Below are positions 3,076-47,112 of a stretch of 64,000 nucleotides of DNA, piece by piece (positions within the stretch are counted from its first letter, which is position 1; each line of letters starts with the position of its first letter). Under the pieces are notes generated by a model. It had not been told where the DNA came from and searched no databases. It saw only the letters and a list, made by a program, of their open reading frames with translations. Source of the stretch: Patescibacteria group bacterium. GTDB taxonomy: Bacteria > Patescibacteriota > Patescibacteriia > Patescibacteriales > Patescibacteriaceae. The stretch covers positions 50,506 to 114,505 of the forward strand of contig CP129471.1 of NCBI GenBank assembly GCA_030583705.1, in the 5' to 3' direction. The translations under genes were made by a program, and so were the position numbers.

Positions 3076-4296
3076 TTAATTAGAATCTACACCAATCGCC
3101 TCTGAGACGGATTTATAACCGTCTTTTTTAATAAGGTAAGCTAATTCTCGGTTAATTTGAGAAACTACTTGTGGTCCCTGATAGATCATACCGGTTATCA
3201 TCTGCAATAAAGAAGCGCCTGCTCGTATTTTTTCATAAGCGTCTTGTCCGGAAAAAATTCCCCCACAACCGATTATTATAAATTTTTTGCCAGCTAGCTT
3301 ATATATCCTGGCGATTAGCTCGGTGGAAAGTTTAGCTAGAGGCTTGCCACTAAGCCCTCCAACCTCTGGAATAGCTGATGAACCGTTTTTTAACCCCTCT
3401 CTGTTCTTTAGTAGATTAGAACAAATAAAACCGGTTAGGTTATAGTCTTCGGCTATTTTAATTATTCCTCTAAGATCATCTTCGTCTATTTGGGCGGATA
3501 GTTTTAAGAAAATTGGTTTTTTGAAATTATTATTGTTATTATTATTTTCTTGTGTTTTTGTTCTTTCTCCAAATAAGGCGAACATAAGTTTTTCAAGTCT
3601 TTGAGGTTTTAAGAAACTTTCTCCACCAAAGGCATTAGGACAACTTAGATTAATGGTAAGGTAGTCGCCTAGCTGTGTAGTCATTATTTTCTCATAACTT
3701 ATTTTAAAATCATTTATGGCTTCTTGAGTTTCAGCGTTAGCCTGACAATTAGTAGCTGCTAAACTTAAGCCAATCGGCAAAGAAGATTTTTTGTTCTTTA
3801 TATTTCCAAGAACTCGATCAACGCCTTGTCCATTAAGACCTAAGTTTACAACTAAGCTTTTTAATTTTTTAAGTCGCCAAAGTCTTTTACCGGGATTGCC
3901 GGTACAAGCTTGGGCGGTGATGGAACCTATTTCCGCAAAACCAAAACCAACACTTTGAAGTAAATTAACAAGTACACCGTTTTTATCAAAACCGGCAGCC
4001 AAGCCGATCGGATTTTTAAAGTTTATTCCGCCAATATTTTGTTCAAGGGTTTTATTATGAAAGACAAGAAATTTTGATAATATCTTTTTGGCAATTTTTG
4101 AATTACCTAAAAAGGTCCCAAAGGACATCATAAAATTATGTACCTTTTCTTCGTCAAAAAGAAAGAAGATTGGTTTTATAACTCTAGAGTAAAGCCAAGA
4201 TAAGATAATAATTTTAAGAGGTTGTTGGTATGGGGTTTTCATATAAGGTTTACAAAGATTTAAATAATCTTTGGGGCTATTTGAATAAAAAATCAA
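3076..4296 (-). CDS. pyrD: dihydroorotate dehydrogenase, family-2-like architecture
   Basis: Collinear with E. coli PyrD motifs: NPIGLAAGFDKNG, FGFAEIGSIT, GNPGKRLWRL, GLNGQGVD, GGLSGKPL, IGCGGI; N-terminal hydrophobic extension; active-site motif reads LSCPN (Cys) rather than ISSPN; 7-Asn insertion. Confidence 0.8.
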   Translation of the reverse strand: MIFYSNSPKDYLNLCKPYMKTPYQQPLKIIILSWLYSRVIKPIFFLFDEEKVHNFMMSFGTFLGNSKIAKKILSKFLVFHNKTLEQNIGGINFKNPIGLAAGFDKNGVLVNLLQSVGFGFAEIGSITAQACTGNPGKRLWRLKKLKSLVVNLGLNGQGVDRVLGNIKNKKSSLPIGLSLAATNCQANAETQEAINDFKISYEKIMTTQLGDYLTINLSCPNAFGGESFLKPQRLEKLMFALFGERTKTQENNNNNNNFKKPIFLKLSAQIDEDDLRGIIKIAEDYNLTGFICSNLLKNREGLKNGSSAIPEVGGLSGKPLAKLSTELIARIYKLAGKKFIIIGCGGIFSGQDAYEKIRAGASLLQMITGMIYQGPQVVSQINRELAYLIKKDGYKSVSEAIGVDSN

Positions 4297-4335: not shown

Positions 4336-5508
4336 ATGTTAGTATATATTTGTTATTTAATCAACTATTTTAATTATATGCCATTTTTTAAAAAATCCTC
4401 TATTAAAACTATTATTAACCCTAAAAGAGGATTTACTTTAATAGAGTTATTGGTAGTTATAGCCGTTATCGGGATTGTTTCAACTCTGGCTGTGGTGGCT
4501 TTAAATAATTCAAGAGCTAGTGCCAGAGACGCTAAGAGAATTTCCGACTTAAGACAAATTTCCTCAGCCCTTGAGCTTTATTATGCTAATAACCAACAAT
4601 ACCCGGCCTCTCTTAATTTTGGTGAGCCTTTGTCTGATGGAGAATTTGTCTACATGGAAAGCTTACCCAGTAACCCAACTCCTCGTACAGACGGTAATTG
4701 CCCTGATCTTGATTATTCCTACTATTCTTTGGGTAATGATTATTCCATTACGACTTGTTTGGGTTCACCTACACAACAAGCCAGTGTTTCAGCTTCACCT
4801 AGCTTTTCTTTGTCTTCTGCCGGAGATTTTCTTTGCGGGCAAATGATTTTTGATAGAGATGGTTATAATTATCCAACAGTACAGATTGGAGGGCAATGTT
4901 GGTTGGCCGAGAACTTAAAAACCAAAACCAAGGCTAATGGTGTTGCTTTAAGTAATCTATATAACGGTTCGGAAAGAGATTGTATAGCCTTGGGTGATGT
5001 AAGGGGTACGGAAGAAGATTGTTCGGCCGGTTATACTCTTTATTCTTGGGCAGCGTCTATGGACTTTGCTCCTTCTTGTAATTTAAACGATTGCCAAGCC
5101 AGTATTACTAGTCCGCACCAAGGTATTTGTCCAGATGGTTGGCATCTGCCGACAGATGATGAATGGCATACCTTGGAAATGTTTTTAAAGGATCCTGCTT
5201 CTACTTGTAACCCAACTCGTCCTGCTCATTGGCAATGTGGACCAGCTGGCGATAAGATGAAAGTTGGCGGTTCCGCTGGTTTTAACGGTATTATGGCTGG
5301 CAAAAGAGATACATTAGGGGATACTTTTGCTGCCAGACGAGAAGGAGCTCATTTTTGGTCTGCCAGCCAAAAACCAGATGATCCGCAAAACGGTGCTTTT
5401 CTTCGTTTAATGTGGCGTTCGGAAACCGGTGGTTGGGTTACTAATACGGTTGGTAGGACTGGTTTTGAAAAAAGAGACGGCTTATCTGTTCGTTGTGTTA
5501 AAAACTAG
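4336..5508 (+). CDS. secreted prepilin-type N-terminal domain fused to Cys-rich FISUMP-like domain (likely start at M 4378)
   Basis: Class III signal 'KRG|FTLIELLVVIAVIG', pilin alpha-1 helix and D-region 'DGNCPD..TCLGSP', then 'GGQCWLAENL', 'YSW', 'CPDGWHLPTDDEW', 'VRCVKN' (Fibrobacter succinogenes major paralogous domain pattern). Confidence 0.7.
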   Translation: MLVYICYLINYFNYMPFFKKSSIKTIINPKRGFTLIELLVVIAVIGIVSTLAVVALNNSRASARDAKRISDLRQISSALELYYANNQQYPASLNFGEPLSDGEFVYMESLPSNPTPRTDGNCPDLDYSYYSLGNDYSITTCLGSPTQQASVSASPSFSLSSAGDFLCGQMIFDRDGYNYPTVQIGGQCWLAENLKTKTKANGVALSNLYNGSERDCIALGDVRGTEEDCSAGYTLYSWAASMDFAPSCNLNDCQASITSPHQGICPDGWHLPTDDEWHTLEMFLKDPASTCNPTRPAHWQCGPAGDKMKVGGSAGFNGIMAGKRDTLGDTFAARREGAHFWSASQKPDDPQNGAFLRLMWRSETGGWVTNTVGRTGFEKRDGLSVRCVKN

Positions 5509-5527: not shown

Positions 5528-5953
5528 TTATTTCCTACTATTTTGATTAATTAAAACTCCCAAGAAAGTTATTACCAAAATAATATTTTTTATAATATAC
5601 TGCCCGAAAAAGCTAGGTACTAAAGGAGCGTCCCAAGCGCTTTTTGGCAAAAGAACAAGAGGTCCGGTGGTGGTAATAATGTGAATTATAAAAAGGTAGG
5701 TTACAAACTTCGTCATTTTTGGTATTAAGAACAATATACCAATAATAACTTCAAAAAAACCATAAAGGATAAGAAAGAGGTTAAAGTCCATTATGTTTAT
5801 AGTGGCGTAAAAAAGCTCTTCTACTGCTCCCTCGGCCGGGGATACTCCAAAGATCTTTAAGGCTCCAAACCAAATATAAATCAGAGCCAAACCAACCCTA
5901 GCGGCTTTTTCATAATGAGAAAAATTAAGTTTTTTAATTATTTTTTCCAGCAT
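5528..5953 (-). CDS. DoxX/YkgB (DUF417)-like small membrane protein
   Basis: 4 TM; 'RVGLALIYIWFGALKIFG' resembles DUF417/DoxX N-terminal motif. Confidence 0.4.
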   Translation of the reverse strand: MLEKIIKKLNFSHYEKAARVGLALIYIWFGALKIFGVSPAEGAVEELFYATINIMDFNLFLILYGFFEVIIGILFLIPKMTKFVTYLFIIHIITTTGPLVLLPKSAWDAPLVPSFFGQYIIKNIILVITFLGVLINQNSRK

Positions 5954-7184: not shown

Positions 7185-7289
7185 GAAAGGCAGTTAAACT
7201 ATAATTTACTTTAAAATATATTGCCTAAAAAAATATTTTCATATATAATTGAATTTGTTTATTTTTAATATAGTTATTTTTTAAAACAT

Positions 7290-7769
7290 ATGAATGAAGA
7301 AAAAGAAGTAAAAGAAGTTTCAAATCCTGATTCTTCGTCTCGTTTTTTAATGTGGTTATTTGTGGCTTTAGTGCCAGCGGTGGTTATTGTCTATGCCGTT
7401 ATGAATCGTCCCAAACCGCAAGATCAGCTTTTGGTTGCAAATAGCAATGAACAAAATGTTATTACTGAAGAAAAATATCGGGATGGTAGATATGAGGTAA
7501 TTGGTGAATACATTGCTCCAAGCGGACTTGAACAAATTAATGTTTCTGTAGTGTTAAATGATGGAGTTATTACTGAGTCTGAAGTAGGGGCTTTATCCGG
7601 TCATCCGGTTTCTCTTAAATTACAAGAAGCTTTTATCGGTGGACATAATGAAGAAGTGGTTGGTAGAAACATTGATGAAGTTAATTTGGGTGTTATTGCC
7701 GGTTCTTCCTTAACTCCTCGTGGTTTTAATGATGCTTTGGAAAAGATTAAAGCTGAAGCTGCTTTGTAA
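7290..7769 (+). CDS. membrane-anchored FMN-binding (NqrC/RnfG-like FMN_bind) domain protein; candidate flavinylation site Thr in 'AGSSLTP'
   Basis: N-terminal single TM; 'RYEVIGEYIAPSGLEQINVSVVLNDGVITESEV' matches FMN_bind core pattern; C-terminal 'VNLGVIAGSSLTPRGF' aligns with the 'VDAVSGATxTS' flavinylation segment; sits immediately upstream of apbE. Confidence 0.45.
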   Translation: MNEEKEVKEVSNPDSSSRFLMWLFVALVPAVVIVYAVMNRPKPQDQLLVANSNEQNVITEEKYRDGRYEVIGEYIAPSGLEQINVSVVLNDGVITESEVGALSGHPVSLKLQEAFIGGHNEEVVGRNIDEVNLGVIAGSSLTPRGFNDALEKIKAEAAL

Positions 7770-7819
7770 TCATTATTTTTGTATTATTTTTTGCTTATTG
7801 ATTTTTATCTTTTTACTTA

Positions 7820-8701
7820 ATGGAATATTCTTCACATAATTTCTCTGCTATCGGTACTGACTGGACTATTGATCTGCCTTCTAATCTTTCTGCGGCTGAA
7901 CAAAGTTCTTTAGTGGAAAAATTAAAAGACAGACTTGAGCTTTTTGATTTTACTTATTCTCGTTTTAGGGCAGATTCAATTATTACTCTTTGGTCCAAAA
8001 AGGCCGGGCAATATCCTTTACCAGATGATGCCGGGCCTCTTTTGGCTTTATATGAAAAAGTATATTCTTTAACGGATGGCTTAGTTAATCCTTTAATTGG
8101 CAAAACCATTGCTTCGGCCGGTTATGACGCTAATTATTCTTTACGTGCATCTTCTGTTTTAGAAGAAACCCCTTCTTGGGAAGATGTTTTATCTATTGAT
8201 AAAGACTCCATTACTTTTAAAAAACCGGCGATACTTGATTTAGGGGCAGCTGGCAAAGGCTATGCCATTGATCTTTTGTCTGACATATTGACTGAACATG
8301 GGCTTGAATCTTTTATGATTAACGCCGGTGGAGATATTTTTCGTAAGGAAGAAACCGATAGTGTGGTACGGGTTGGCTTAGAAGATCCCCAAGATTCTTC
8401 CAAGGTAATTGGGGTAGCATCTTTACATAACGGCAGTCTTTGTGCCTCAGCCGGTAATCGTCGGGCCTGGCCAGGTTTTCATCATATTATTAACCCGAAA
8501 ACTAAAAAGTCTCCCCAAGATATTATAGCGGTTTGGGTTTCGGCCGAAACAGCCGCTTTAGCGGATATTTTAGCTACTGCTCTTTTCTTTTGTCCCCCAG
8601 AAAAACTTAAGACGACATATGATTTTGAATATGTTATAATTGGAAAAGATCGCTCGGTAAAATATTCCACTAATTTTAAGGGTGAGTTGTTTTTAAAATA
8701 G
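7820..8701 (+). CDS. apbE: FAD:protein FMN transferase ApbE (Ftp)
   Basis: 'YSRFRADSII' N-terminal motif and 'LDLGAAGKGYAIDLL' (GxxGKGYAxD) characteristic of ApbE. Confidence 0.75.
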   Translation: MEYSSHNFSAIGTDWTIDLPSNLSAAEQSSLVEKLKDRLELFDFTYSRFRADSIITLWSKKAGQYPLPDDAGPLLALYEKVYSLTDGLVNPLIGKTIASAGYDANYSLRASSVLEETPSWEDVLSIDKDSITFKKPAILDLGAAGKGYAIDLLSDILTEHGLESFMINAGGDIFRKEETDSVVRVGLEDPQDSSKVIGVASLHNGSLCASAGNRRAWPGFHHIINPKTKKSPQDIIAVWVSAETAALADILATALFFCPPEKLKTTYDFEYVIIGKDRSVKYSTNFKGELFLK

Positions 8702-8767
8702 TTATAATAGTCATAATTTTAAGATTAAGATATTGGTATTCTTAAGGTAATTTCTTAAAAGGTTTTT

Positions 8768-10240
8768 ATGTTAAAGGCCATAGATTCTTTTGTTAACCAA
8801 ATAACCATGTATCGCCTGGTTTTGTATGGACTGGTTATTTTAGCTACCTTATCTGTTATTCTCGGTTTTCTTAATGTGTTGCCTTACTCCGGTTTTGAAC
8901 TTTTAACTTCTTTACTTATTCTTTCTTTAGTTTGTTTTCTTGCCACCAAGATCCTTTCTCGTTTTTATAATGTTGAATCTTCAGTCATTACGGCTTTAAT
9001 CCTCTTTTTTATTTTTGAACCATCCATTGAAAAAACCGGACTTTTAACTTTGGCAGCTATTGGTTTAACGGCTGTTTTAAGTCGTTATATTTTAGCTTGG
9101 CGCGGAAAACATATCTTTAATCCGGCAGCTTTAGCGGCGGTAATTTTTGGTTTAACTGGTAGCGGTTTGGCAGTTTGGTGGGTTGGTAGCGAATTTTTAT
9201 TATTGCCTTCTCTTATTTTGGGCTTTTTGGTAACTAAAAAGATTAGACGAGCTTCTTTGGTTTCATCTTTCATTATTACCGCTACGGTTGTTATGTTAGT
9301 CATTACTTACTTCTCCGGTTATTCTCTAGTTGAAGCTCTAAGGGTTATCTTGTTCTCTTGGCCTCTTATTTTCTTTGCGACCATTATGTTAACTGAACCT
9401 CTAACTACACCGCCTCGTAAAGAAACTCAGTTAGCCTACGGGGTAATTGTTGGTTCGCTTTTTTCCGCCCAGTTTCATTTTGGTCCGATTTATCCGACAC
9501 CGGAGTTAGCTTTGGTTATAGGTAATATTTTTTCTTTTATTGTAAGCAATAAGGGACGATTTAATTTAAGATTGCGTCAAATAGTTAACCTAACACCCTC
9601 CATTAAAGAGTTTGTTTTTAGCCCAGATAAGCCTTTGGTTTTTTTATCGGGGCAATACATGGAATTTACGGTTCAGCCCAAGGGAGCAGATAACCGCGGT
9701 AATCGTCGTTATTTTACCTTAGCCTCTTCCCCAACCGAACAAGAAGCCAGGCTAGGTATTCGCTATAATCAACCCAGTAGTTCTTTTAAGGAAAAATTAA
9801 AATCTCTTAAACCAGGAGACAGAGTAGTGGCTACCCAGGCAATGGGTGATTTTATTTTACCAAAAGATTTATCCACCCCAATGATCTGGCTGGCTGGTGG
9901 TATAGGGATTACTCCTTTTCGTAGTATGGCTAAGTTTGTTTGTGATAATAAACAAACTCTGGATTGCTACCTTTTTTATCTGGCAGCTCAGCAAGAAGAT
10001 TTTGTTTATAGGGAAATTTTTGAAGAAGCGGCTAGTTATGGTCTTAAAACTTTTTACCTTGAAAGTACTAAGGACAAGCCTTTTGATTTTTCTCATTTAA
10101 GCGATTATGTTAAAGATTATGAAAAAAGGTTATTCTATATTTCCGGGCCTAATGGTTTAGTAGAGAGTTTTTCATCAGCGATTATTAAGAATGGTGTGTC
10201 CGGCAAACAAGTTATTAAGGATTATTTCCCTGGTTTTTAA
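8768..10240 (+). CDS. fusion of RnfD/NqrB-like membrane domain and ferredoxin-NADP reductase-like FAD/NAD(P)H-binding domain
   Basis: N-terminal ~260 aa polytopic domain with 'GKHIFNPAAL' (RnfD NPFNPA motif) and 'IMLTEPLTTPP' (cf. RnfD ILTDPVTASTT flavinylation site). C-terminal domain with 'RRYFTLASSP' (RxYS FAD motif) and 'GGIGITPFRSM' (NAD(P) binding). Confidence 0.6.
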   Translation: MLKAIDSFVNQITMYRLVLYGLVILATLSVILGFLNVLPYSGFELLTSLLILSLVCFLATKILSRFYNVESSVITALILFFIFEPSIEKTGLLTLAAIGLTAVLSRYILAWRGKHIFNPAALAAVIFGLTGSGLAVWWVGSEFLLLPSLILGFLVTKKIRRASLVSSFIITATVVMLVITYFSGYSLVEALRVILFSWPLIFFATIMLTEPLTTPPRKETQLAYGVIVGSLFSAQFHFGPIYPTPELALVIGNIFSFIVSNKGRFNLRLRQIVNLTPSIKEFVFSPDKPLVFLSGQYMEFTVQPKGADNRGNRRYFTLASSPTEQEARLGIRYNQPSSSFKEKLKSLKPGDRVVATQAMGDFILPKDLSTPMIWLAGGIGITPFRSMAKFVCDNKQTLDCYLFYLAAQQEDFVYREIFEEAASYGLKTFYLESTKDKPFDFSHLSDYVKDYEKRLFYISGPNGLVESFSSAIIKNGVSGKQVIKDYFPGF

Positions 10241-10254: not shown

Positions 10255-11463
10255 ATGTCTACTGCGGCTAAACAGATAAAAGACAACTGTCTTTATTGCG
10301 GTAATAATCCGGTATCTCATCACTGGACTTGGTTTAATGAAACAATGGCTGTAATCTTTAATCCCCTTATTGCCTTCTTAACGGATAATTTTTTAATGCA
10401 AAGATTTAATCGTCTTTTTGATCATATTTTTTCTTTAGTTGGGAAAATTTTAGAAAAAGCCGGCTTTCTTTCTTACGTAAAAGAAAGACCAAATAAATTA
10501 AGTCATAGAACAGAAGTTTTATGGGATGAAGCGGATAGTCGCGGCTGGCGTTTTGAGCGGTTAATTTTTTTTGGGAAAGACCTAGACTATTACCGAGTTT
10601 TTGTTAAAAACGATCATCCAATTCTTTTTTCCGGATTACCAAGACCGCATTATATGCCGGGACTAGGAGATTGGTGGATAGATGATAAATACCTTGTTAA
10701 GAAGGTATTATCAGCTAAAGGCCTACCAATACCAAAAGGTGGAGGGTTTAGTAACTATAATTCATTGTTAAGAGTTTTTAAGAAATTAGATAAGCCAGTA
10801 ATTATTAAACCAAGATTGGGATCAAGGGGTAGACATACTACGACTTTTATAAATTCTGAAGAAGAGTTGTTTAAGGCCTATAAAAGAGCTAAACAACTTT
10901 GTTATTGGGTAATTATGGAAGAACACCTAATAGGTGATGTCTATCGCGGTACTATGATAGGTAGTAAGTTAGTTGGAGTATTAAGTGGTAATCCACCAAG
11001 AATCACCGGAGATGGCCAAAGCACTATCCTACAACTAATTGATCTTAAAAACCAAAACAGACACGAGGGAGTTAGTGTTTTTGTTCCCTCAGATTATACT
11101 AAAGAGTTTTTAAAAAAAATCGGTTATAATCTTAATTCAGTTTTACCTATGGGTACAACCATTGACCTAACCGAAAAGATAGGTGTTTCATATGGAGGCT
11201 CAAGTGCTGAAGTAACACAACAAACGCATCCTAAGATTAAAGATATTCTAGAACAGGCGGCTAAAGCTATTGGTGACCCGATGATTGGCTTTGATTTTAT
11301 TATAAAAGACATTAGCGCTGACCCGGATAACCAAAAATGGGGAATTATTGAATGTAATGGATTGCCCTTTATAAACCTACATCATGACCCAATAGAAGGA
11401 CCACCCATTAACGCAGCCGCTGCAGTCTGGGATTTTGTAGAAAACAATCTTAATTATTATTAA
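10255..11463 (+). CDS. ATP-grasp family protein (RimK/cyanophycin-synthetase-N-terminal-like) with Cys/His-rich N-terminus
   Basis: 'DDKYLVKKVLSAKGLPIPKG', 'VIIKPRLGSRGRHTTTF', 'EEHLIGDVYRG', 'GIIECNGLPF' consistent with ATP-grasp fold; N-terminal 'CLYCGNNPVSHHW'. Confidence 0.5.
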   Translation: MSTAAKQIKDNCLYCGNNPVSHHWTWFNETMAVIFNPLIAFLTDNFLMQRFNRLFDHIFSLVGKILEKAGFLSYVKERPNKLSHRTEVLWDEADSRGWRFERLIFFGKDLDYYRVFVKNDHPILFSGLPRPHYMPGLGDWWIDDKYLVKKVLSAKGLPIPKGGGFSNYNSLLRVFKKLDKPVIIKPRLGSRGRHTTTFINSEEELFKAYKRAKQLCYWVIMEEHLIGDVYRGTMIGSKLVGVLSGNPPRITGDGQSTILQLIDLKNQNRHEGVSVFVPSDYTKEFLKKIGYNLNSVLPMGTTIDLTEKIGVSYGGSSAEVTQQTHPKIKDILEQAAKAIGDPMIGFDFIIKDISADPDNQKWGIIECNGLPFINLHHDPIEGPPINAAAAVWDFVENNLNYY

Positions 11464-11556: not shown

Positions 11557-12831
11557 GTGATGCTATATAAAAATAAAGAGAATCAAGAAAAAAAGAAAAC
11601 ACCTCAACCATTTGAGGTGTTTAATAGTGGGTTAAATATTGAGTTAAATAGTATGTTAAATAGAAACTTAAACACTAGATTATACAGCAGCAAAGCCTTT
11701 ACTACACAATATAATAAAACAGCAAAAGCCTTCACCCTCATTGAACTATTAGTAGTTATAGCCATCATAGGTATATTATCCACTCTAGTAATAGTAGCTC
11801 TAGGCAATTCACGAGCAGGTGCCAGAGACGCTAAAAGACTAAATGATCTAAAAGCCATGGCTAATGCTCTAGAGCTATATTATGCAGATAATAACTCATA
11901 CCCTGAAGCAGATAACTTTTCTCCTGGAGCTACTTTTGAAGCCGGTGGAGTAGTTTATATGGGCAAAGTACCCAATAACCCTACTCCTCATACAGACGGA
12001 GGTTGTCCAGATAATGATTATACTTATACTCAAATAGAATCAGGACAAAGTTACATTATCTCAACTTGTCTTGGTACTCCAGCAGATAATTCTCCTTATC
12101 CTTCCTCAACTGCTGTTTCATACTCTCCCTCAGGTATGTTTCAATGTGGACAGAACATGGAAGACTTAAGAGATAATAAAACTTATCAAACTGTCCAAAT
12201 TGGTAACCAATGTTGGATGAAAGAAAACTTAGCTTATCTACCATCAGTTAGTCCATCCACTGCGGGTGACGCTTCAATTCCTTATTACTATGTTTATAAT
12301 TATCAGGGTACAGATGTTCAGGCAGCTAAAGTCACCGCTAATTACACTACTCATGGGGCTCTCTATAACTGGCCAGCGGCTACCACCGCTTGTCCTATCG
12401 GCTGGAAACTTCCTACTGATGAAGAATTTAATGTCTTGGAACAATATACTGTAGCGACGATTGCTAGCACTGCCACCCAATATGCTTGTAATACTTCAGT
12501 TACTAGTTGGCCAAGATGTGCGGATAATCTTAATGGAGATCAGGGTGGAACTTTTGGGGTTGGTAAATCTCTAAAGAAAGCTGGACAAGGATCAGGTATT
12601 GGAGCTGGCGATGATTTAGTTGGTTTTTCCGCTATGTTATCTGGCTCTCGTGCCACCTCTTCTGGAGGTATTTTTGCTAATATGCCTGTTTACGGCCTTT
12701 TTTGGTCAGCCCCGCAGTCTACCTCGACTGAAGCTTGGAGTCGGCTTCTGCTCTCCACTTATTCGACAATCTATCGAGGTGCGCTTAATAAAGCTAGTGG
12801 TTATACAGTCCGTTGCCTCAAAGATTCTTAA
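11557..12831 (+). CDS. secreted prepilin-type N-terminal domain fused to FISUMP-like domain, paralog of 4336..5508 (likely start at M 11653)
   Basis: 'AKA|FTLIELLVVIAIIG', 'DGGCPDNDYTYT..STCLGTP', 'GNQCWMKENLAY', 'ALYNWPAA', 'CPIGWKLPTDEEF', 'YTVRCLKDS'. Confidence 0.7.
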   Translation: MMLYKNKENQEKKKTPQPFEVFNSGLNIELNSMLNRNLNTRLYSSKAFTTQYNKTAKAFTLIELLVVIAIIGILSTLVIVALGNSRAGARDAKRLNDLKAMANALELYYADNNSYPEADNFSPGATFEAGGVVYMGKVPNNPTPHTDGGCPDNDYTYTQIESGQSYIISTCLGTPADNSPYPSSTAVSYSPSGMFQCGQNMEDLRDNKTYQTVQIGNQCWMKENLAYLPSVSPSTAGDASIPYYYVYNYQGTDVQAAKVTANYTTHGALYNWPAATTACPIGWKLPTDEEFNVLEQYTVATIASTATQYACNTSVTSWPRCADNLNGDQGGTFGVGKSLKKAGQGSGIGAGDDLVGFSAMLSGSRATSSGGIFANMPVYGLFWSAPQSTSTEAWSRLLLSTYSTIYRGALNKASGYTVRCLKDS

Positions 12832-16253: not shown

Positions 16254-17146
16254 AACTCTCATATCTCTATGATGTATTTAAGCAACATATTAAATCCTAT
16301 AAGTGGCTAGCGCTTTCTTGTTTGTTTGCGTAGAGGCCGCTTAACAAGCGGTTTTTTTGTTCCCTTAAAAGTATTTTGTCCGCTCGCGGAATTGTTACTT
16401 CGGTAATAATTCCACGACCGTATAAAATACGGTTACCTTAAAAATTGAACACGCGAATAAAGTAACTGTAATTTTGTAAGTTAAGAGTCCAATTAATGAT
16501 GATCTGCATTTTTGAAAACAAAGATGTAGGAAAATCTCGTAAGGGTGTATGGTGGATGCCTTGACTCAAGAAGACGATGAAGGACGTAGCAGTCTGCGAT
16601 AAGCCTCGGTTAGGTGACAAGCAACCTTTGACCCGGGGATTTCCGAATGGGGAAACCTATCCTGTTGAAGACAGGATGTCCGCATGCTGAACACATAGGC
16701 ATGTGAGACGAGTACTCGGTGAACTGAAACATCTTAGTAGCCGAAGGAAAAGAAAACAAATTTAATCTTTTATCAAGATTGACGATTTTTCGTCTGTTTT
16801 GATAAGAGATTGCGATTCCCTGAGTAGTGGCGAGCGAAAGGGGAGCAGCCTAAACCGTTTAGACCATATATACTGGACTCACTTCGGTGAGAAAAGTATG
16901 TTGAAGGAATTAGGTCCATATGTTTTTACGGTGTTGTAAGAGTGCCATGATTGCTACCTAATGCGGCAAGACGGCGCTATTGAATTATTAGTCGAAGGAG
17001 CTGGAAAGCTCGGCCAAAGACGGTGATAGCCCGGTAGACGAAAATAAGACAGGCGTTGTGATGGCAAATCTTAAGTACTGCGGGACTCGTGAAATTCCGT
17101 GGGAAGCAGGGTCGACTATGACCCAAGGCTAAATACTTCTTGAGAT

Positions 17147-17183
<37 letters not shown>

Positions 17184-18692
17184 CATCCCGGTGAGGGAGA
17201 TGAAATAGTATCTGAAACCATATACTTACAAGCAGTCGGAGCCTGTTACCTTCGGGTAATCGGGTGACGGCGTGCCTATTGAAGAATGAGCCAACGAGTT
17301 TGTTGTATGCGGCTTGATTAATTCCGTTAAACGGAAGCAGTCATAGTGAAAGCGAGGGTTAACCGCCCGTACTCTTATTTATTAGAAGTGGCAATAATTT
17401 GTCCTTACGCAAGTAAGGCTTTGTTGTTCTTCTATTAGATAAGAAGGTCGCATGCACAAGACCCGAAGCCGGGTGATCTAACCATGGCCAGGTTGAACCT
17501 TGACGAAAGTCAAGGGGAGGACCGAACCCGTAAGTCGTGCAACACTTTGGGATGAGCTGTGGTTAGCGGAGAAATTCCAATCGAACTCGGCAATAGCTGG
17601 TTCTCCTCGAAATAGCTTTAGGGCTAGCCTCGAGCGCTGAACATGGGGGGTAGAGCACTGAATGGGGGTGGGCCGCAAGGTACCTTCTCCAACCAAACTC
17701 CGAATACCCATGCGTGTAGCTCGGGAGTCAGACTATGGGCGCTAAGGTCCATCAGTCGAAAGGGAAACAGCCCAGATCGCCATCTAAGGTCCCTAAATAT
17801 AAACTAAGTGTAAAAGGTGGTGTCGTGACCGCGACAACTAGGAGGTTGGCTTAGAAGCAGCCATCCTTTAAAGATAGCGTAATAGCTCACTAGTCTAGTC
17901 GTCTCGCGCCGAAAATGTACCGGGGCTAAGTTTATTACCGAAGATGCGAACTTGTTACTTAGGTAACAAGTGGTAGAGGAGCATTCCAACGCCGCTGAAG
18001 TCGTGATGTGAGTCACGGTGGAGGTTTTGGAAGAGAGAATGTTGGCATAAGTAGCATAAAGGCGGGTGAAAACCCCGCCCACCGAAAATCTAAGGGTTCC
18101 TGGGCAACGTAAATCGTCCCAGGGTTAGTCGGCCCTAAGGCGAGGCTGCTGTAGTGGCAGCGTAGTCGATGGATGAGCTGGTTAATACTCCAGCACTACT
18201 GTAATTTTCCGATGGGGGGACGAAGTCTCAAGGTTCAAGCGTTTCTATGGTATGAACGTTGTTGTCCGCAAGAGCTGATCCAGGCAAATCCGGATCACCA
18301 AGCTCAAGCGGTTGACTGAAGACAAAGCTTTCGGGCGGCGTCAATTTGAGCTGAGAGATTTTCCAGAAAAGCCTCTAGGGTTAAGATTATAGTATCCGTA
18401 CCGTAAACCGACACAGGTAGATGAGGCGAGAAGCCTAAGGTGAACGAGAGAACCCTCGTTAAGGAACTCGGCAAAACAGCGGGCGTAAGTTAGCAATAAG
18501 CCCTGCCCCGCGCAAGCGGGGCCGCAGCGAAAGATTTCAAGTGACTGTTTACCAAAAACACAGCTCCCTGCTAACTCGTAAGAGGATGTATAGGGGGTGA
18601 TGCCTGGCCAGTGTCCGAACGTTAAGAGGAGAGGTTAGCACTTCGGTGCGAAGCTTTGAATCGAAGCGCGGATGAACGCCGGCCGTAACTAT

Positions 18693-19408
18693 AGAAGCTT
18701 AGGACGACCCTTTGGGTTTAAGCGTTGTAGTTACGTTAAAAAATCTGACTATATGCTGGAAACTCCCGTTAGACAAGCGGTACTCGGTTAAACACCAGTG
18801 AAAATCCGTTTGGTAGGGACAATCAGCAGGAAAGCTAATACTATGTTAAATATACAAAATATTCCGGACCGTATAGGCTATTATTTAGCCGGTTTTACGG
18901 ACGGAGAAGGTAGTTTTATGGTAGTGGTTCGTAATCGCCCGGATTTTCGGGCCGGTTATAAAGTTTCTCTTTGTTTTAATGTTTCTCAGAAAGAAAGTTA
19001 TATTCTTTCTCAGTTTAAAAAACATTTAGCTTGCGGAACTTTAAGATCACGACCTGATGGAGTCTGGTATTTTGAAGTTAATAACTTCAAGGCTATCAGT
19101 GAAAACATCATTCCTTTTTTTGATCGATTTGGTTTTTTGTCGCAAAACAAGAAAAAGCAATACGCTTTATTTAAGCGAGCGGCTTATATTATAAAAACTG
19201 AAACTCATTTGACCTTAGAGGGTTTTCAAAAAATTCTCTTAATACGAAGTCAAATGAATCGTGGTGGAAAAAGAAAAAACTTAGCATCCTCAGAGACTAT
19301 ACGTCAGACCCGTTTACGGGAAGATATAGTCCGACCTTCAGTGAAAGCTGAAGAGCTCAGCAGAAATGTTTGAGCCACTTAACGGCAACGTTAAGGAGTA
19401 ACAAGATG
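18693..19408 (+). mobile_element. group I intron in 23S rRNA (near E. coli position ~1917) carrying a LAGLIDADG homing endonuclease ORF
   Basis: Exon sequence GTAACTAT^AACGGTCC interrupted; 5' exon ends in U, intron ends in G; contains 'gactatatgctggaaactc' core also seen in the 16S intron 1. Confidence 0.7.
18798..19373 (+). CDS. LAGLIDADG homing endonuclease (intron-encoded; probable true start M 18843)
   Basis: 'YLAGFTDGEGSFMVVV' LAGLIDADG motif; located wholly within 23S intron. Confidence 0.75.
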   Translation: MKIRLVGTISRKANTMLNIQNIPDRIGYYLAGFTDGEGSFMVVVRNRPDFRAGYKVSLCFNVSQKESYILSQFKKHLACGTLRSRPDGVWYFEVNNFKAISENIIPFFDRFGFLSQNKKKQYALFKRAAYIIKTETHLTLEGFQKILLIRSQMNRGGKRKNLASSETIRQTRLREDIVRPSVKAEELSRNV

Positions 19409-19422
19409 AACGGTCCTAAGGT

Positions 19423-19749
19423 TGTGTAATTTTACGAAGGTAAGATTATACAAGGACTGGGACCGTTATCTTAAAGTTCGTTACCTGGCTATAATGAAAG
19501 TTGTAGTTGTCCTAAAACACCCAGTAAAATGCGCTAAAATCTTCAAAAGATTTTTGGTACCACTCTCTTTTATGAGACATGGTAAAAATCCGGAAATACA
19601 CGGAGGCAAGGCGCAGGATTAATTAAATATTAATCCCCAGAGACTTAACACTGGGGTCCTAAGATGTAAGACTAGTATCTGAAGTTAACTAGATTATATT
19701 ATGGATAAGATAAAGTCCGGGCTTAATAGATAATATTAAGAAGGACCAG
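19423..19749 (+). mobile_element. second, ORF-less intron in 23S rRNA (near E. coli ~1931), 14 nt downstream of intron 1
   Basis: Exon AACGGTCCTAAGGT^AGCGAAATTCC interrupted by 327 nt; 5' exon ends U, intron ends G. Confidence 0.55.
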
Positions 19750-19797
<48 letters not shown>

Positions 19798-20289
19798 AAC
19801 TTGAAAACTGTCTCAACGAGGGACTCGGCGAAATTACAGGACCGGTAAAGATGCCGGTTAACCATAGCTAGACGAAAAGACCCCGTGAAGCTTTACTACA
19901 GCTTGATATTGGGTTAGGGATATATCTGTTCAGAATAGGTGGGAGCCTTCGGGCGCCAGTGAGATACCACCCTGGTATATTTTTAATCCTCACTTCGATC
20001 CGTGAATCCGGATAAAGGACAGTATCTGGTGGGTAGTTTGTCTGGGGCGGATGCCTCCTAAAAGGTAACGGAGGCGTTTACAAAGGTTGGCTATCTCGGG
20101 ATGGAAACCCGGGAGATAGTGTAAAGGCATAAGCCAGCTTTACTGCAAGACCTACAAGTCGCGCAGTTGCGAAAGCAGAACTTAGTGATCCGACCGTGCG
20201 AAATAGAACGGCGGAAGCTCATCGGATAAAAGCTACTCCGGGGATAACAGGCTAGTCACGCCCAAGCGTCCACAGCGACGGCGTGGTTC

Positions 20290-20322
<33 letters not shown>

Positions 20323-20332
20323 GTGGAGAAGC

Positions 20333-20385
<53 letters not shown>

Positions 20386-20732
20386 CCGTCGTAAGACAGG
20401 TCGGTCTCCTCTCTACTATGGTCGCGGAAATTTGAGAAGGCTCTTCCCTAGTACGAGAGGACCGGGAAGAACGAAGCTCTAGTGTGCCAGTTGTCCTACC
20501 AAGGGCATTGCTGGGTAGCTACCTTCGGTTTAGATAAACGCTGAAAGCATCTAAGCGTGAAGCTGTCTTCAAGATTAGATTTCATAGGTTGGTCAGAGAC
20601 TATGACCTTGATAGGCTCCAGGTGTAAGTCCGGTAACGGATTGAGCCGAGGAGTACTAATAAACCATTAGATTTTCCTACAATTTTGTTTTTAAATCACA
20701 GTCTTTATTCGTGTGTCAATTTATAAGAGTTT

Positions 20733-20861
20733 GATGGCGCCGTCTTGGTGGTTCTTGCGAAGGGGTCACACCTGTTCTCATCTCGAACACAGAAGTTAAG
20801 CCCTTCAGCGCCGATGATACTTGGGCCGCCCAAGCCCTGGGAAAGTAGGTCGCCGCCAGGA
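20733..20861 (+). rRNA. rrf: 5S rRNA
   Basis: 'ggcgccgtcttggtgg..cctgttctcatctcgaacacagaagttaagc..gccgatgatacttggg..gtaggtcgccgccagg' matches 5S consensus. Confidence 0.85.
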
Positions 20862-24578: not shown

Positions 24579-24618
24579 AAGATTAATGTTAATGAACGGA
24601 GAGATTTTTGGAGAGGTT

Positions 24619-25671
24619 TTAAGAGGAGAGTTTGTTTTTAAACCAATTAACCCAAGGTATTTCCATGGGGTTAACTTTGTTTTCAAGAGCTAAATAGTAT
24701 GTTAGCCAACCACCTAATTGCAACATAACCAGGGCTTGGATTAAAGCGTTTGAGCCAACAAGGCTATATGAACAAACAGTAATATTTTGTTTCTTAATAA
24801 CTTCTTTAGTTAAATCAAGTCGTTTATTGATTCTTTTGTCATTAAGGCTTGATTCAAAAAACAAAGCAGCCAGTCTTTTTTTATTGGAGGACGGATACTT
24901 AAGACCTTCCATGGCAAAATGGTTCATTTCGGATAAGACCAAGTAAGAGGCGTAGTTTTTGGCGTTTTCGCACCATTGGTTACGTAGAGTCTTAAGATTA
25001 CCTTCAAATAATGGACCACCGATTAAAATAGTTTCTTTATCTGATAGCTTTTTTGCCAATTTTTTAATTGAAGAGCTATTATTTTTTAGATCTTTGTTAC
25101 TTTTTTTAACTTGTTTGATTAAATCTTTTATTTCTTTGTCTGGTAATTTAATTACTCCGAGTTTTTTAAGTATAAGCAAGAAAGAAGCTAAGGAAAGACC
25201 AAGTCCGGCACGGGGTTGATTAGATGGATTGGTTTTGGTACTAAAACAAAAACGGGAAATATTGTCTTTTTCGGCTTTTTTAAATAAGGTACTGTTTTTA
25301 TCTCCGGTTAAAGCCAGTAGTTGAGCACCTCTTTTTTTAGCTTTGTCATAAGCGACTAAGACTTCTTCGGTAGTTCCGGAATAAGAAGAAAGGATGTAGA
25401 GAGTTTTTTTATTAACATGACCATTAAGTTCATAACCTGGTTCAATAATTAAGGGGATTTTAAGTTTATTTTGCCAAATTGATTTAATAATCTCCGCTCC
25501 AAGATTGGAACCACCCATACCGTTAACAACTATTTTATCTATGTTTTTAACAGAGGGTTTTATGATAAGGTTTTTTTCATCACTAAAAACCGCTGCCATT
25601 TGATCCGGCAACTTACTTAAAGATTCTTCAAAGACTGGGAAACGCATTGAGCGCTTGAGAGCGAGAAACAT
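24619..25671 (-). CDS. bifunctional phosphoglucose/phosphomannose isomerase (SIS domain, archaeal-type PGI/PMI family)
   Basis: 'IVVNGMGGSNLGAEII' SIS motif and overall ~330 aa two-SIS layout. Confidence 0.55.
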   Translation of the reverse strand: MFLALKRSMRFPVFEESLSKLPDQMAAVFSDEKNLIIKPSVKNIDKIVVNGMGGSNLGAEIIKSIWQNKLKIPLIIEPGYELNGHVNKKTLYILSSYSGTTEEVLVAYDKAKKRGAQLLALTGDKNSTLFKKAEKDNISRFCFSTKTNPSNQPRAGLGLSLASFLLILKKLGVIKLPDKEIKDLIKQVKKSNKDLKNNSSSIKKLAKKLSDKETILIGGPLFEGNLKTLRNQWCENAKNYASYLVLSEMNHFAMEGLKYPSSNKKRLAALFFESSLNDKRINKRLDLTKEVIKKQNITVCSYSLVGSNALIQALVMLQLGGWLTYYLALENKVNPMEIPWVNWFKNKLSS

Positions 25672-45738: not shown

Positions 45739-45773
<35 letters not shown>

Positions 45774-46214
45774 ATGTGTCTAAGGCATGCAAGTCGAACG
45801 CGCGTAGCAATACGCGAGTGGCAAACGGGAGAGTAACACATTGGTAACTTACCTTGAAGACGGGTATAGCTCGGAGAAATCCGAGGTAATCCCCGATAGT
45901 CATGGGGGGACATAAGTCATTCCCATGTAAATGGTCCGCCGCTTCAAGAGAGGCCTATGTTCTATCAGCTTGTTGGTAAGGTAACGGCTTACCAAGGCTA
46001 CGACGGATAGCGGGTGTGAGAGCATGACCCGCCTCACTGGGACTGAGAAACTGCCCAGACTCCTACGGGAGGCTGCAGTCAAGAATCTTCCTCAATGGCC
46101 GCAAGGCTGAAGGAGCGACATCGCGTGCAGGAGGAAGCCCTTCGGGGTGTAAACTGCTTTTCTCTGGGAAGAAACAATGACGGTACCAGAGGAATAAGGG
46201 GTTGCTAAACTCGT

Positions 46215-47112
46215 AAAATAAAATTTAGCAGTAAACCTTGTATTATCGGAGTGCGACTCTTAACGGTAACGTTAAGATGCATAACTCGGCTTATATGCTG
46301 GGAACTCTAACCACGTTAATAATCTGCTGTTTAGTGGTTAGACAATCAGCAGGGAAGTTGTTATGATTCAGTTATGAATATTAGTTTAACACAAAGACAA
46401 AGATCAATTGTCATCGGCAATATTTTAGGTGATGGTTATTTGGATTTTAATGGTTTTCGCGGAACCAGGCTTCAAATGAAGCAGTCTAAAAATTATAAAA
46501 TGTATATTTTTTGGCTTTATCGTGAATTCTTTAATATATGCAAAGATCATCCCAAAGCAAGACCTGATGGTAGTCAATGGTTTTTCGGTACAAGATACCT
46601 AGATGAGCTAACAGAATTAAGGCAACGATTTTATAACATTTCAGGTAAAAAAATCGTTCCCAATGAGATCGGTAAAATTTTAACCGACCCTCTTTCTTTA
46701 GCTGTTTGGTATATGGACGACGGAACATTGGACTGGAGACTTAAAGATCATTATGCTTTCAGTTTAGCCATCAATTGCTTTTCTCTATCGGAAGCGGCAA
46801 TGTTATCCAATACATTGCTCTGTAATTTTGATATTAAAACAACTGTGCAAAATCCTTTGTGCAGAGGTAAAAGATATCCAAGATTATACATAGGCAAAAC
46901 CGGCAGAGATAAATTTTTGTCTTTAATAAAACCTTATATGGTTTCTTGTTTTAACTATAAATTACCTCCTCATAATTAACCCCTCAGAGACTGATCCTTA
47001 AGTGGAGAGATAGCGGTACTTCAACTATGTTGAAAATCAATCTGCCGCTATAAAACGCCGGGCATCCTATTTTTATAGGATGGTGATATAGTCCAATTGG
47101 CAATATTTATTG
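46215..47112 (+). mobile_element. group I-type intron in 16S rRNA inserted inside the universal 515F site (after E. coli ~516), carrying a LAGLIDADG ORF
   Basis: Exon GCTAAACTCGT^GCCAGCAGCAGCGGTAATAC; 5' exon ends U, intron ends G; shares 'atatgctgggaactc' and 'acaatcagcagg' elements with 23S intron 1. Confidence 0.65.
46374..46979 (+). CDS. double-motif LAGLIDADG homing endonuclease (intron-encoded)
   Basis: 'IGNILGDGYLD' and 'LAVWYMDDGTLD' motifs. Confidence 0.75.
   Translation: MNISLTQRQRSIVIGNILGDGYLDFNGFRGTRLQMKQSKNYKMYIFWLYREFFNICKDHPKARPDGSQWFFGTRYLDELTELRQRFYNISGKKIVPNEIGKILTDPLSLAVWYMDDGTLDWRLKDHYAFSLAINCFSLSEAAMLSNTLLCNFDIKTTVQNPLCRGKRYPRLYIGKTGRDKFLSLIKPYMVSCFNYKLPPHN

What the first reader, a model, noticed from the sequence alone, without database searches (positions are those of the whole stretch)
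7290..10240. Compact three-gene flavinylation module: FMN-binding protein + ApbE + RnfD-like::FNR fusion (minimal Nqr/Rnf-like electron conduit)
Three co-directional genes with 50-70 nt spacing encode (i) a single-TM protein whose extracytoplasmic domain matches the NqrC/RnfG FMN_bind pattern with a candidate flavinylated Thr ('AGSSLTP'), (ii) the flavin transferase ApbE, and (iii) one polypeptide joining an RnfD/NqrB-like membrane domain to an FNR-type NAD(P)H/FAD domain. The membrane domain carries the FNPA motif and 'LTEPLTTP' at the position of the RnfD flavinylation site. This would give NAD(P)H -> FAD -> membrane FMN -> extracytoplasmic FMN on two proteins, i.e. a stripped-down Nqr/Rnf-like or extracellular-electron-transfer-like system. 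CPR-type organisms generally lack respiratory chains, so such a module for NAD(P)H re-oxidation would be physiologically significant. ApbE-linked flavinylated systems have been surveyed before; I cannot tell whether this particular fusion architecture has been described.
Basis: partly seen in the sequence, partly recalled or inferred. Interest (0 to 1): 0.85.

Follow-up and report, generated by a model that had tools for sequence, protein, structure and literature searches.

The report
Minimal Nqr/Rnf-like flavin electron conduit
Three adjacent genes in this candidate-phyla-radiation genome encode a stripped-down relative of the Nqr/Rnf respiratory complexes that probably passes electrons from NAD(P)H across the membrane to a flavin on the cell surface; this design was already described from genome surveys in 2021 and 2024 but has never been tested experimentally.

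The parts
7221..7249 (+). Promoter-like site (TTGCCT-17-TATAAT) about 40 nt upstream of the first gene; a weak, consensus-only call
   Evidence: 10 of 12 matches. The number of such sites in the region is not above the shuffled controls, so this is only a candidate.
7290..7769 (+). NqrC/RnfG-like FMN-binding partner (159 aa): N-terminal membrane anchor, short linker, C-terminal FMN_bind domain
   Evidence: One TM segment (hydropathy 2.64). Domain aa 60-159 has pLDDT above 90. hhalign to SGAT-type partners gives 99.2% probability. Foldseek lists RnfG and FMN-domain structures, though weakly.
7335..7403 (+). Membrane anchor / signal-anchor helix of the partner (aa 16-38)
   Evidence: Family-wide K/R bias is N-flank above C-flank in 45 loci against 16. 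Actinobacterial orthologs have lipoprotein signal peptides (LAGC/VTGC).
7698..7718 (+). Acceptor motif A-G-S-S-L-T-P (aa 137-143); predicted FMN acceptor is Ser140 (nt 7707-7709)
   Evidence: G138, S139, S140 and L141 are invariant or nearly so. The motif aligns to SGAT of canonical FMN_bind domains.
7820..8701 (+). ApbE-family FAD:protein FMN transferase (293 aa) without a signal peptide or lipobox
   Evidence: PF02424 scores 139 bits. GKGYA (aa 142-149 region), HHIINP (aa 220-226) and ADILAT (aa 248-253) are retained. The IGTDW motif sits at aa 11-15 against MGTFW at aa 42 in E. coli ApbE. N-terminal hydropathy is 0.13 against 1.99 for the E. coli control.
8768..9553 (+). RnfD/NqrB-fold membrane domain of the fusion (aa 1-262; 10 TM helices, N-in)
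9116..9127 (+). FNPA motif (aa 117-120), shared with RnfD (RsxD aa 121-124)
   Evidence: F117, N118 and P119 are invariant in 26 homologs.
9158..9199 (+). Short outward loop GSGLAVWWVGSEFL (aa 131-144), in the place of the ~90-residue RnfD/NqrB loop that carries the covalent FMN-Thr; no acceptor residue is conserved
   Evidence: The distance from the end of FNPA to WW is 16-23 residues in all 67 homologs measured.
9389..9412 (+). LTEPLTTP (aa 208-215), equivalent to the RnfD/NqrB 'TDPVT' motif on the cytoplasmic face; not a flavinylation site
   Evidence: T209 (or S), E210, P211 and T213 are conserved; T214 is variable.
9554..10240 (+). FNR/NqrF-type FAD + NAD(P)H domain (aa 263-490): RRYFTLAS FAD motif (nt 9704-9727), GGIGITPF nucleotide motif (nt 9896-9919), C-terminal aromatic DYFPGF (nt 10220-10237)

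Best explanation
This is a Patescibacteria member of the published 'NQR/RNF-like' flavinylation-associated system: a two-subunit, flavin-only transmembrane electron conduit plus its dedicated flavin transferase. Inferred mechanism: NAD(P)H reduces FAD in the cytoplasmic FNR-type domain of the fusion. Electrons then pass through the RnfD/NqrB-fold membrane domain in the direction opposite to that in Rnf/Nqr, via non-covalent flavin site(s) homologous to the riboflavin site (cytoplasmic half) and the FMN site (outer half) of RnfD/NqrB. They reach an FMN covalently attached to Ser140 of the membrane-anchored NqrC/RnfG-like partner on the outer face, and from there an unidentified extracytoplasmic acceptor. 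ApbE installs that FMN from FAD. What is shown here: gene identities, folds, motifs, topology signals, operon conservation and the loss of the RnfD acceptor loop. What is inferred: cofactor content of the membrane domain, direction of flow, the acceptor, and the physiological role (NAD(P)+ regeneration in an organism with no obvious respiratory chain).
For: Domain and fold identities come (fusion; partner; ApbE). The operon order partner-ApbE-fusion, usually with overlapping stop and start codons, is found in most of 83 loci from five or more phyla, and no other neighbour is broadly conserved. Topology: the fusion is N-in with 10 TM helices and a cytoplasmic FNR domain, with K+R 10.6 inside against 0.54 outside. 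The partner has an N-terminal anchor, and its actinobacterial orthologs have lipoprotein signals. The acceptor Ser140 is invariant and aligns with the SGAT acceptor. ApbE subtype follows the partner's motif type: 23/25 and 38/47. It is discordant with fusion similarity: fusion A-A 43.5% against A-B 43.1%, ApbE A-A 44.8% against A-B 24.6%. That pattern is what an enzyme-substrate pair would show. No Cys motifs for Fe-S clusters are present. Literature: the same architecture and model are given in PMC8238504 (section 13) and PMC10979944 / PMC11334425. The cofactor layout of RnfD/NqrB (riboflavin near the cytoplasm, FMN-Thr near the periplasm, about 8 Angstrom apart) is in PMC12174285.
Against: No member of this system has been characterised experimentally, and none turned up in the literature searches. 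The window's own PF03116 and PF04205 scores are below Pfam's cut-offs. The Foldseek hits of the partner are weak, with no E<=0.001. No acceptor or terminal reductase is encoded nearby in the window or recurrently in related loci. The operon's ApbE has no export signal in any of 71 loci while its presumed substrate is exported. The standard model of flavinylation on the outer face does not explain this. Flavin occupancy of the membrane domain cannot be read from sequence.
Confidence: 0.78

Rival explanations
1. Same machine, but its job is assimilatory metal reduction: an Fe(III) or chelate reductase on the cell surface, a flavin-based analogue of NOX/FRE ferric reductases, rather than bulk NAD(P)H re-oxidation.
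Against: There is no iron transporter, siderophore or VIT1 gene next to the operon in the window, and none among the recurrent neighbours in 83 loci. The PF08030 and siderophore-reductase similarities are generic to the FNR superfamily.
Confidence: 0.2
2. The module works on the cytoplasmic side. The leaderless ApbE flavinylates a partner domain that stays in the cytoplasm, and the membrane domain serves as an anchor or as a solute channel (it shares the Amt/urea-transporter fold) rather than as an electron path.
Confidence: 0.07
3. One reading: two covalent FMNs, one on the partner and one on a Thr of 'LTEPLTTP' in the fusion.
For: T209 and T213 are conserved. The motif lies on the cytoplasmic face, where this leaderless ApbE would be.
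Against: The motif is homologous to the TDPVT motif of RnfD/NqrB, which is not the FMN attachment point in those proteins; that is Thr187 in 'SQAT' of RsxD, on the outer loop. The motif bears no resemblance to [S/T]GA[S/T]. It is identical in both operon subtypes, whereas ApbE changes with the partner's motif. T214 is not conserved. The mSystems 2024 paper reports that the membrane subunit has no flavinylation site.
Confidence: 0.03
4. Reverse or ion-coupled operation: the module takes electrons from an external low-potential donor, or uses the ion gradient, to reduce NAD(P)+, as Rnf can run in reverse.
For: The RnfD/NqrB fold belongs to ion-translocating complexes, and Rnf is reversible (PMC12174285).
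Against: The subunits that carry out redox-driven ion translocation with the intramembrane 2Fe-2S cluster (RnfA/E, NqrD/E) are absent from the operon and were not detected in the window. FNR-type modules fused to membrane electron carriers normally act as NAD(P)H oxidising inputs.
Confidence: 0.05

Closest known systems
NQR/RNF-like flavinylation-associated system (Meheust et al. 2021 eLife, PMC8238504; follow-up mSystems 2024, PMC11334425)
   Same: The architecture is identical: an NqrB/RnfD-like membrane domain fused to a PF00175 NAD-binding domain, next to an NqrC/RnfG-like FMN-binding protein and ApbE. It was reported mainly from Actinobacteria and the candidate phyla radiation. The membrane subunit lacks the NqrB/RnfD flavinylation site. 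The proposed flow is one-way, from NAD(P)H to the outside.
   Different: The window belongs to a subtype in which the partner has 'GSSLT' rather than 'SGAT' and falls below Pfam's FMN_bind cut-off, paired with a distinct ~290-aa ApbE. The published model (Ktedonobacter) should belong to the other subtype, because the two Ktedonobacteria loci seen here (L018, L033) do. The papers I read do not mention that the operon's ApbE lacks a signal peptide. The family appears larger than the 127 genomes reported: at least 450 GTDB species hits and 344 clusters at 50% identity.
Na+-NQR (NqrB, NqrC, NqrF) and Rnf (RnfD, RnfG)
   Same: The membrane domain has the RnfD/NqrB 10-TM fold with the FNPA and T(D/E)PxT motifs. 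The partner has the NqrC/RnfG FMN_bind fold with an ApbE acceptor motif. The FNR domain is closest to the NqrF FAD/NADH domain.
   Different: There are no RnfA/E or NqrD/E, RnfB, RnfC or NqrA subunits and no Fe-S clusters. The FMN-Thr loop of NqrB/RnfD is deleted. The FNR domain is fused directly to the RnfD-like domain. Electrons are expected to cross the membrane once, outward, not in a there-and-back loop. No ion pumping is expected.
Listeria-type flavin-based extracellular electron transfer (Ndh2, EetA/B, PplA, FmnB)
   Same: It is a functional analogue: cytoplasmic NADH is oxidised, electrons end on ApbE-flavinylated FMN_bind domains on the cell surface of a monoderm, and NAD+ is regenerated without a classical respiratory chain.
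   Different: The Listeria system uses a quinone intermediate and non-homologous membrane proteins. Its flavin transferase FmnB is an exported lipoprotein and depends on FAD export. Here there is no quinone step, and ApbE has no export signal.
NOX/FRE ferric-reductase-type NADPH oxidases (e.g. SpNOX, PDB 8qq7)
   Different: The membrane domain is unrelated. NOX/FRE uses a six-helix di-haem domain, whereas this protein has an RnfD/NqrB fold with flavins and needs a separate flavinylated partner.
Cytosolic ApbE of Klebsiella pneumoniae (partner of the cytoplasmic fumarate reductase)
   Same: It is an ApbE-family transferase without a signal peptide.
   Different: Its substrate is a soluble cytoplasmic enzyme. 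Here the cognate substrate carries a membrane anchor or lipoprotein signal.

Membership tests
NQR/RNF-like system (operational definition of Meheust 2021) | One protein with an N-terminal NqrB/RnfD domain (PF03116) and a C-terminal NqrF-type NAD-binding domain (PF00175) | tested here: met
NQR/RNF-like system (operational definition of Meheust 2021) | Located in a gene cluster with ApbE and/or an FMN-binding-domain gene | tested here: met
   Both lie immediately upstream on the same strand. The order is conserved in most of 83 loci.
NQR/RNF-like system (operational definition of Meheust 2021) | [quoted passage not shown] | tested here: inconclusive
   SignalP is not available here. The partner has a single N-terminal hydrophobic helix (aa 16-38), more anchor-like than cleavable, and ApbE has none. 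The window's cluster might have been missed by that pipeline.
NQR/RNF-like system (mSystems 2024 description) | The membrane subunit lacks the flavinylated Thr of NqrB/RnfD | tested here: met
   The loop is deleted (10 residues against 92 between FNPA and GxG..W). None of 68 homologs has the acceptor motif.
RnfD/NqrB proper (subunit of Rnf or Na+-NQR) | 10-TM RnfD/NqrB fold | tested here: met
RnfD/NqrB proper (subunit of Rnf or Na+-NQR) | Covalent FMN on a Thr in an [S/T]GA[S/T]-type motif on the outer loop | tested here: not met
   The motif and the loop are both absent.
RnfD/NqrB proper (subunit of Rnf or Na+-NQR) | Encoded with RnfA/E (NqrD/E), RnfB/C or NqrA/F subunits | tested here: not met
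   None is among the conserved neighbours. phmmer with E. coli RsxA, B, C and E finds nothing in the 64-kb window (single-sequence sensitivity only).
FMN_bind domain (PF04205; NqrC/RnfG/PplA type ApbE substrates) | Sequence or profile membership | tested here: met
   The window protein alone is sub-threshold: 13.6 bits against 22. Its family matches PF04205 in 21 of 26 members, best E 9e-5. The family is homologous to the SGAT-type partners at hhalign 99.2% probability, E 7e-20, with all 47 hit at E<=5e-11.
FMN_bind domain (PF04205; NqrC/RnfG/PplA type ApbE substrates) | FMN_bind fold | tested here: inconclusive
   The domain model is confident, pLDDT above 90. Foldseek lists RnfG (8rb8_G, 8ahx_G) and FMN domains (8p2a, 8p2b, 3o6u) near the top, but only at E 0.008-0.09 and mixed with IscU and lipoyl folds.
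FMN_bind domain (PF04205; NqrC/RnfG/PplA type ApbE substrates) | [S/T]GA[S/T]-like acceptor motif with a Ser/Thr acceptor | tested here: met
   A variant motif, [S/A]-G-[S/A]-S140, with invariant Ser140 aligned to the acceptor position. The motif definition is from PMC8238504.
FMN_bind domain (PF04205; NqrC/RnfG/PplA type ApbE substrates) | Covalent FMN actually attached | not testable with these tools
   This needs UV-fluorescent SDS-PAGE or mass spectrometry after co-expression with the cognate ApbE.
ApbE / Ftp flavin transferase (PF02424) | Family membership and conserved FAD/Mg2+ motifs | tested here: met
   PF02424 scores 139 bits. E is 6e-14 to 4xgw/2o18. The GKGYA, HHIINP and ADILAT motifs are aligned.
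ApbE / Ftp flavin transferase (PF02424) | N-terminal signal peptide or lipobox, typical of extracytosolic ApbEs | tested here: not met
   There is no hydrophobic N-terminus in the window ApbE or in any of 71 operon ApbEs read from the longest possible start. The one flagged case, L024 (hydropathy 1.95), is the first beta-strand and not a signal. The positive control, E. coli ApbE, scores 1.99 against 0.13.

The most novel reading that the evidence does not exclude
In this operon family the flavin transferase is cytoplasmic while its cognate substrate is an exported, membrane-anchored or lipidated FMN-binding domain. FMN would then be attached to Ser140 inside the cell, where FAD is available, before or during export of the partner. 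That would be a route for building a surface flavoprotein without an FAD exporter, which would suit minimal CPR genomes. If so, the module could be the main membrane NAD(P)H-oxidising device of many Patescibacteria, and it would have been under-counted by surveys that required signal peptides and Pfam-level FMN_bind hits.
Probability: 0.3. Interest if true: 0.55.

Novelty: new member of a known kind. Interest (0 to 1): 0.3.

Why it matters
Patescibacteria generally lack recognisable respiratory chains, so a compact NAD(P)H-to-outside electron conduit is a plausible answer to how they re-oxidise nicotinamide cofactors, or reduce something on their surface or on their host's. The system is widespread: at least 450 GTDB species genomes carry it, there are several hundred clusters at 50% identity, and it occurs in five or more phyla. 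It has only two subunits plus ApbE, so it should be easy to reconstitute. That makes it a good minimal model for electron transfer through the RnfD/NqrB fold. However, the architecture and this reading are already published, so the finding adds an instance and some detail rather than a new kind of system. The added details are the correct acceptor residue, two ApbE/partner cassette types, and the consistently leaderless ApbE.

Tried and rejected
1. A PDB sequence search with the whole-fusion profile returned only FNR-family hits.
2. The membrane-domain profile alone gave only a marginal RnfD hit at E 0.095, and hhalign against E. coli RsxD gave 56% probability. Both were useful for aligning motifs but not decisive.
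5. The eLife supplement sheet that lists SignalP calls for NQR/RNF-like clusters was truncated in the held copy. I could not check whether the authors' table already shows ApbE without a signal.
6. I looked for a second, exported ApbE or another FMN_bind gene in the 64-kb window and found none. The rest of the genome is not available.
7. I looked for a conserved acceptor or terminal reductase next to the operon and found none. Only two-component systems (15-17 loci), MacB-type ABC permeases (11 loci), HlyD-like proteins and P-type ATPases (6 loci each) recur.
8. The downstream ATP-grasp gene is not a conserved neighbour.
9. Twin-arginine export would explain cytoplasmic flavinylation, but only 6 of 75 partners have an RR near the hydrophobic region. 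It is not a general answer.
10. I considered that the co-variation of ApbE and partner subtype merely reflects two ancient operon clades. I rejected this because fusion-protein similarity does not follow the subtypes.
11. I considered a frameshift or misassembly origin for the fusion and rejected it: hundreds of full-length homologs have the same architecture.
Full report
OBSERVATION. All are on the + strand, with gaps of 50 and 66 nt. The middle protein is an unambiguous ApbE: PF02424 scores 139 bits, E 3e-40, and it matches the solved E. coli FAD:protein FMN transferase at E 6e-14. The C-terminal half of the third protein is an FNR-type FAD/NAD(P)H module. PF00175 gives E 8e-8, many NCBIfam FNR-family models match aa 263-487, and the best PDB profile hits are the NqrF FAD/NADH domain at E 4e-17. 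NQR2_RnfD_RnfE scores 24.0 bits against 27.7, and FMN_bind scores 13.6 against 22.

For the small protein, 21 of 26 family members match FMN_bind, best E 9e-5. The only sensible PDB sequence hit is an FMN-binding domain, 8p2a. Its family is clearly homologous to the canonical SGAT-type partners found in the same operon elsewhere, at hhalign 99.2% probability and E 7e-20. The fold search is only weakly supportive: RnfG and FMN-domain structures are near the top, but E is 0.008-0.09.

OPERON CONSERVATION AND DISTRIBUTION. The 80 loci kept come from Patescibacteria (about 31 by record title), Chloroflexota including Ktedonobacteria (7), Hyphomicrobiales such as Mesorhizobium and Kaistia (11), Actinomycetota (10), Spirochaetota (4) and others. 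Two metagenome loci were added. In most loci the order is partner, ApbE, fusion on one strand, usually with the ApbE stop overlapping the fusion start. Clustering all neighbouring ORFs shows that only these three families are broadly conserved, at 80, 71 and 64 loci. The next most frequent are histidine kinases (17), response regulators (15) and MacB-type ABC permeases (11). The downstream ATP-grasp gene is not a conserved partner. The membrane domain alone finds 344 clusters (50% identity) at E<=1e-30, and nearly all complete hits are about 490-510 aa, so the fusion is the family's normal form.

(a) 'LTEPLTTP' is not at the RnfD flavinylation site. In E. coli RsxD the flavinylated Thr is T187 in 'SQAT' (aa 184-187), on a long outward loop after the FNPA helix. 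A separate motif, 'LTDPVT', lies at aa 287-292. Both HMMER against A. vinelandii RnfD and hhalign against RsxD align MLTEPLTTP with (A/L)TDPVT. In the fusion, FNPA (aa 117-120) and GSGLAVWW (aa 131-138) are 10 residues apart. In RsxD, FNPA and the corresponding GAGWQW are 92 apart. The loop that carries the FMN-Thr is therefore missing.

Across 68 homologs the stretch from the end of FNPA to the WW pair is always 16-23 residues. None has D..[ST][GS]A[ST] in the membrane domain, only one has a bare [ST]GA[ST], and the second Thr of 'TT' is not conserved. This agrees with the mSystems 2024 paper, which reports that the membrane subunit lacks the flavinylation site.

Topology from the model's ten helices and the positive-inside rule is very clear: 10.6 K+R on inside loops against 0.54 on outside loops, over 26 homologs. 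The protein is N-in, the FNR domain is cytoplasmic, the GSG..WW loop faces outward, and LTEPLTTP lies on the cytoplasmic face.

(b) In the partner, the residue aligned with the acceptor of the [S/T]GA[S/T] motif (definition in PMC8238504) is invariant Ser140 of 'A-G-S-S-L-T-P'. Thr142 corresponds to the non-acceptor Thr two positions later, as in RsxG 'T-G-A-T-I-T-P' and 8p2a 'S-G-A-T-Y-T'. Ser acceptors are experimentally established for other ApbE substrates.

MECHANISM. The established layout of RnfD/NqrB puts a non-covalent riboflavin near the cytoplasmic side and the covalent FMN near the outer side, about 8 Angstrom apart (PMC12174285). The fusion places an FAD/NAD(P)H module directly on the cytoplasmic end of that fold. 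It has no Cys motifs for Fe-S clusters and has lost its own FMN-bearing loop. The most economical reading is the one already proposed in the literature. NAD(P)H reduces FAD, electrons cross the membrane domain through non-covalent flavin site(s), and they reach the FMN covalently held by the partner. In the published AlphaFold-multimer model the partner docks its acceptor site at the vacated outer flavin pocket. From there electrons leave to an unknown external acceptor.

Shown here: identities, folds, motifs, topology signals and operon conservation. Inferred: cofactor occupancy, direction of flow, the acceptor and the physiological role. Moving electrons outward while leaving the proton of NAD(P)H inside does not build a proton-motive force. 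The likely role is therefore redox balancing or surface reduction, not energy conservation (inference).

COMPARISON WITH WHAT IS KNOWN. Meheust et al. 2021 (eLife, PMC8238504) define 'NQR/RNF-like systems' as flavinylation gene clusters encoding an NqrB/RnfD (PF03116) plus NqrF (PF00175) fusion. [quoted passage not shown] The 2024 follow-up models the Ktedonobacter complex. I found no experimental study. The window's module meets that definition, so it is a member of a known but uncharacterised kind. It is not a member of Rnf or Nqr proper: the FMN-Thr motif and the partner subunits were tested and are absent. In function it resembles the Listeria flavin-based extracellular electron transfer system. 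In architecture it resembles the NOX/FRE oxidases, but its membrane domain is unrelated to theirs.

WHAT MAY BE NEW. (1) The operon comes in two cassette types. Type A, which includes the window, occurs in many Patescibacteria and in Actinomycetota. Its partner ends in '(S/A)G(S/A)SLT..GFNDA..KIKAEA' and its ApbE is about 290 aa, starting 'FEAIGTxW'. Type B occurs in other Patescibacteria and in Chloroflexota, Hyphomicrobiales and Spirochaetota. Its partner has the canonical 'SGAT' motif and its ApbE is about 247 aa, starting 'MGMPITVEI'. The pairing holds in 23 of 25 and 38 of 47 loci. The pairing is not just shared ancestry of whole operons. Within CPR, fusion proteins are as similar across types as within them (43.1% against 43.5%). 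ApbEs are not (24.6% against 44.8%), and CPR type-A ApbEs are closer to actinobacterial type-A ApbEs (39.0%). This supports ApbE and the partner being an enzyme-substrate pair.

(2) None of the 71 operon ApbEs has an N-terminal hydrophobic segment, even when read from the longest possible start, and in most loci there is no room upstream for one. The E. coli lipoprotein ApbE serves as a positive control for this test. Yet the partners carry signal-anchors or, in Actinomycetota, textbook lipoprotein signals. Cytosolic ApbEs are known, but they serve cytosolic substrates (PMC12052999). Possible explanations are flavinylation before export, a second exported ApbE elsewhere in the genome (none in this window), or an unrecognised export route. 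Twin-arginine motifs occur in only 6 of 75 partners.

[quoted passage not shown] Type-A CPR operons, with a sub-threshold FMN_bind score and a leaderless ApbE, may therefore have been under-counted. That would soften the reported under-representation of flavinylation in CPR.

VERDICT. The system is already described in the literature, so novelty is 'new member of a known kind' and interest is modest at 0.3. The leaderless-ApbE puzzle is the one lead worth an experiment.

CONTEXT. The window is typical of a CPR genome. GC is 30-44%. The 16S and 23S-5S genes are unlinked, and both rRNA genes are interrupted by insertions encoding LAGLIDADG endonucleases. The operon is flanked by RadC, a DoxX protein, a dihydroorotate dehydrogenase, two pilin-like Fib_succ_major proteins, an ATP-grasp ligase and FtsK. 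None of these is a conserved partner of the operon.

Noticed in passing
window 16529-20861 and 45741-48044: The rRNA genes are unlinked and interrupted. The 23S gene spans 4151 nt against a 2925-nt model and contains a LAGLIDADG_1 ORF (18798-19373); 5S follows at 20744-20861. The 16S gene lies about 25 kb away and is split (45741-46248 and 46914-48044) by a ~665-nt insertion carrying a LAGLIDADG_2 ORF (46374-46979). This is typical of CPR genomes.
   Followed up: partly
window 49255-49671: A tight cluster of five tRNA genes (Ile-GAT, Met-CAT, Phe-GAA, Pro-TGG, Gly-TCC) lies just downstream of the 16S gene.
   Followed up: no
window 3076-4296 (-) and 5528-5953 (-): A dihydroorotate dehydrogenase whose catalytic domain starts at aa 83. 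It has a class-2-like N-terminal extension but an 'LSCPN' active-site motif, with a Cys base as in class 1 enzymes. A DoxX membrane protein is nearby. The electron acceptor of this DHODH is unclear in an organism expected to lack quinones. Any link to the flavin module is untested.
   Followed up: no
window 4336-5508 and 11557-12831: Two paralogous pilin-like proteins flank the operon region. Each has an N-terminal methylation motif plus a Fib_succ_major domain.
   Followed up: no
window 10255-11463: An ATP-grasp ligase resembling only the core of cyanophycin synthetase (NCBIfam E 1.5e-54 over aa 143-394) starts 14 nt after the fusion's stop. It is probably co-transcribed here but is not a conserved neighbour in other loci.
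   Followed up: partly
window 21582-24686 (-): A 1034-aa protein with four lamin-tail domains and PKD domains, presumably a large surface protein.
   Followed up: no
loci L004, L006, L010, L026, L040, L048: GTDB MAG records titled 'uncultured Gammaproteobacteria bacterium' carry CPR-like versions of the fusion at 37-45% identity, and some share the RadC/FtsK context. The record titles are probably wrong.
   Followed up: no
loci L002, L005, L035, L039, L041-L043, L055, L057, L058, L063, L075, L083 and others: A histidine kinase and an OmpR-type response regulator sit next to the operon in 15-17 loci from several phyla. This suggests that expression responds to an environmental signal in those lineages. 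They are absent from the window.
   Followed up: partly
loci L074, L075, L077, L081 (partner N-termini): Some actinobacterial and spirochaetal partners have twin-arginine-like n-regions (e.g. TRRRTLGL, FRRTAAA, HRRALTM) ahead of a lipobox or hydrophobic region. That would fit export of a partner already folded and flavinylated. Most partners lack this motif.
   Followed up: partly
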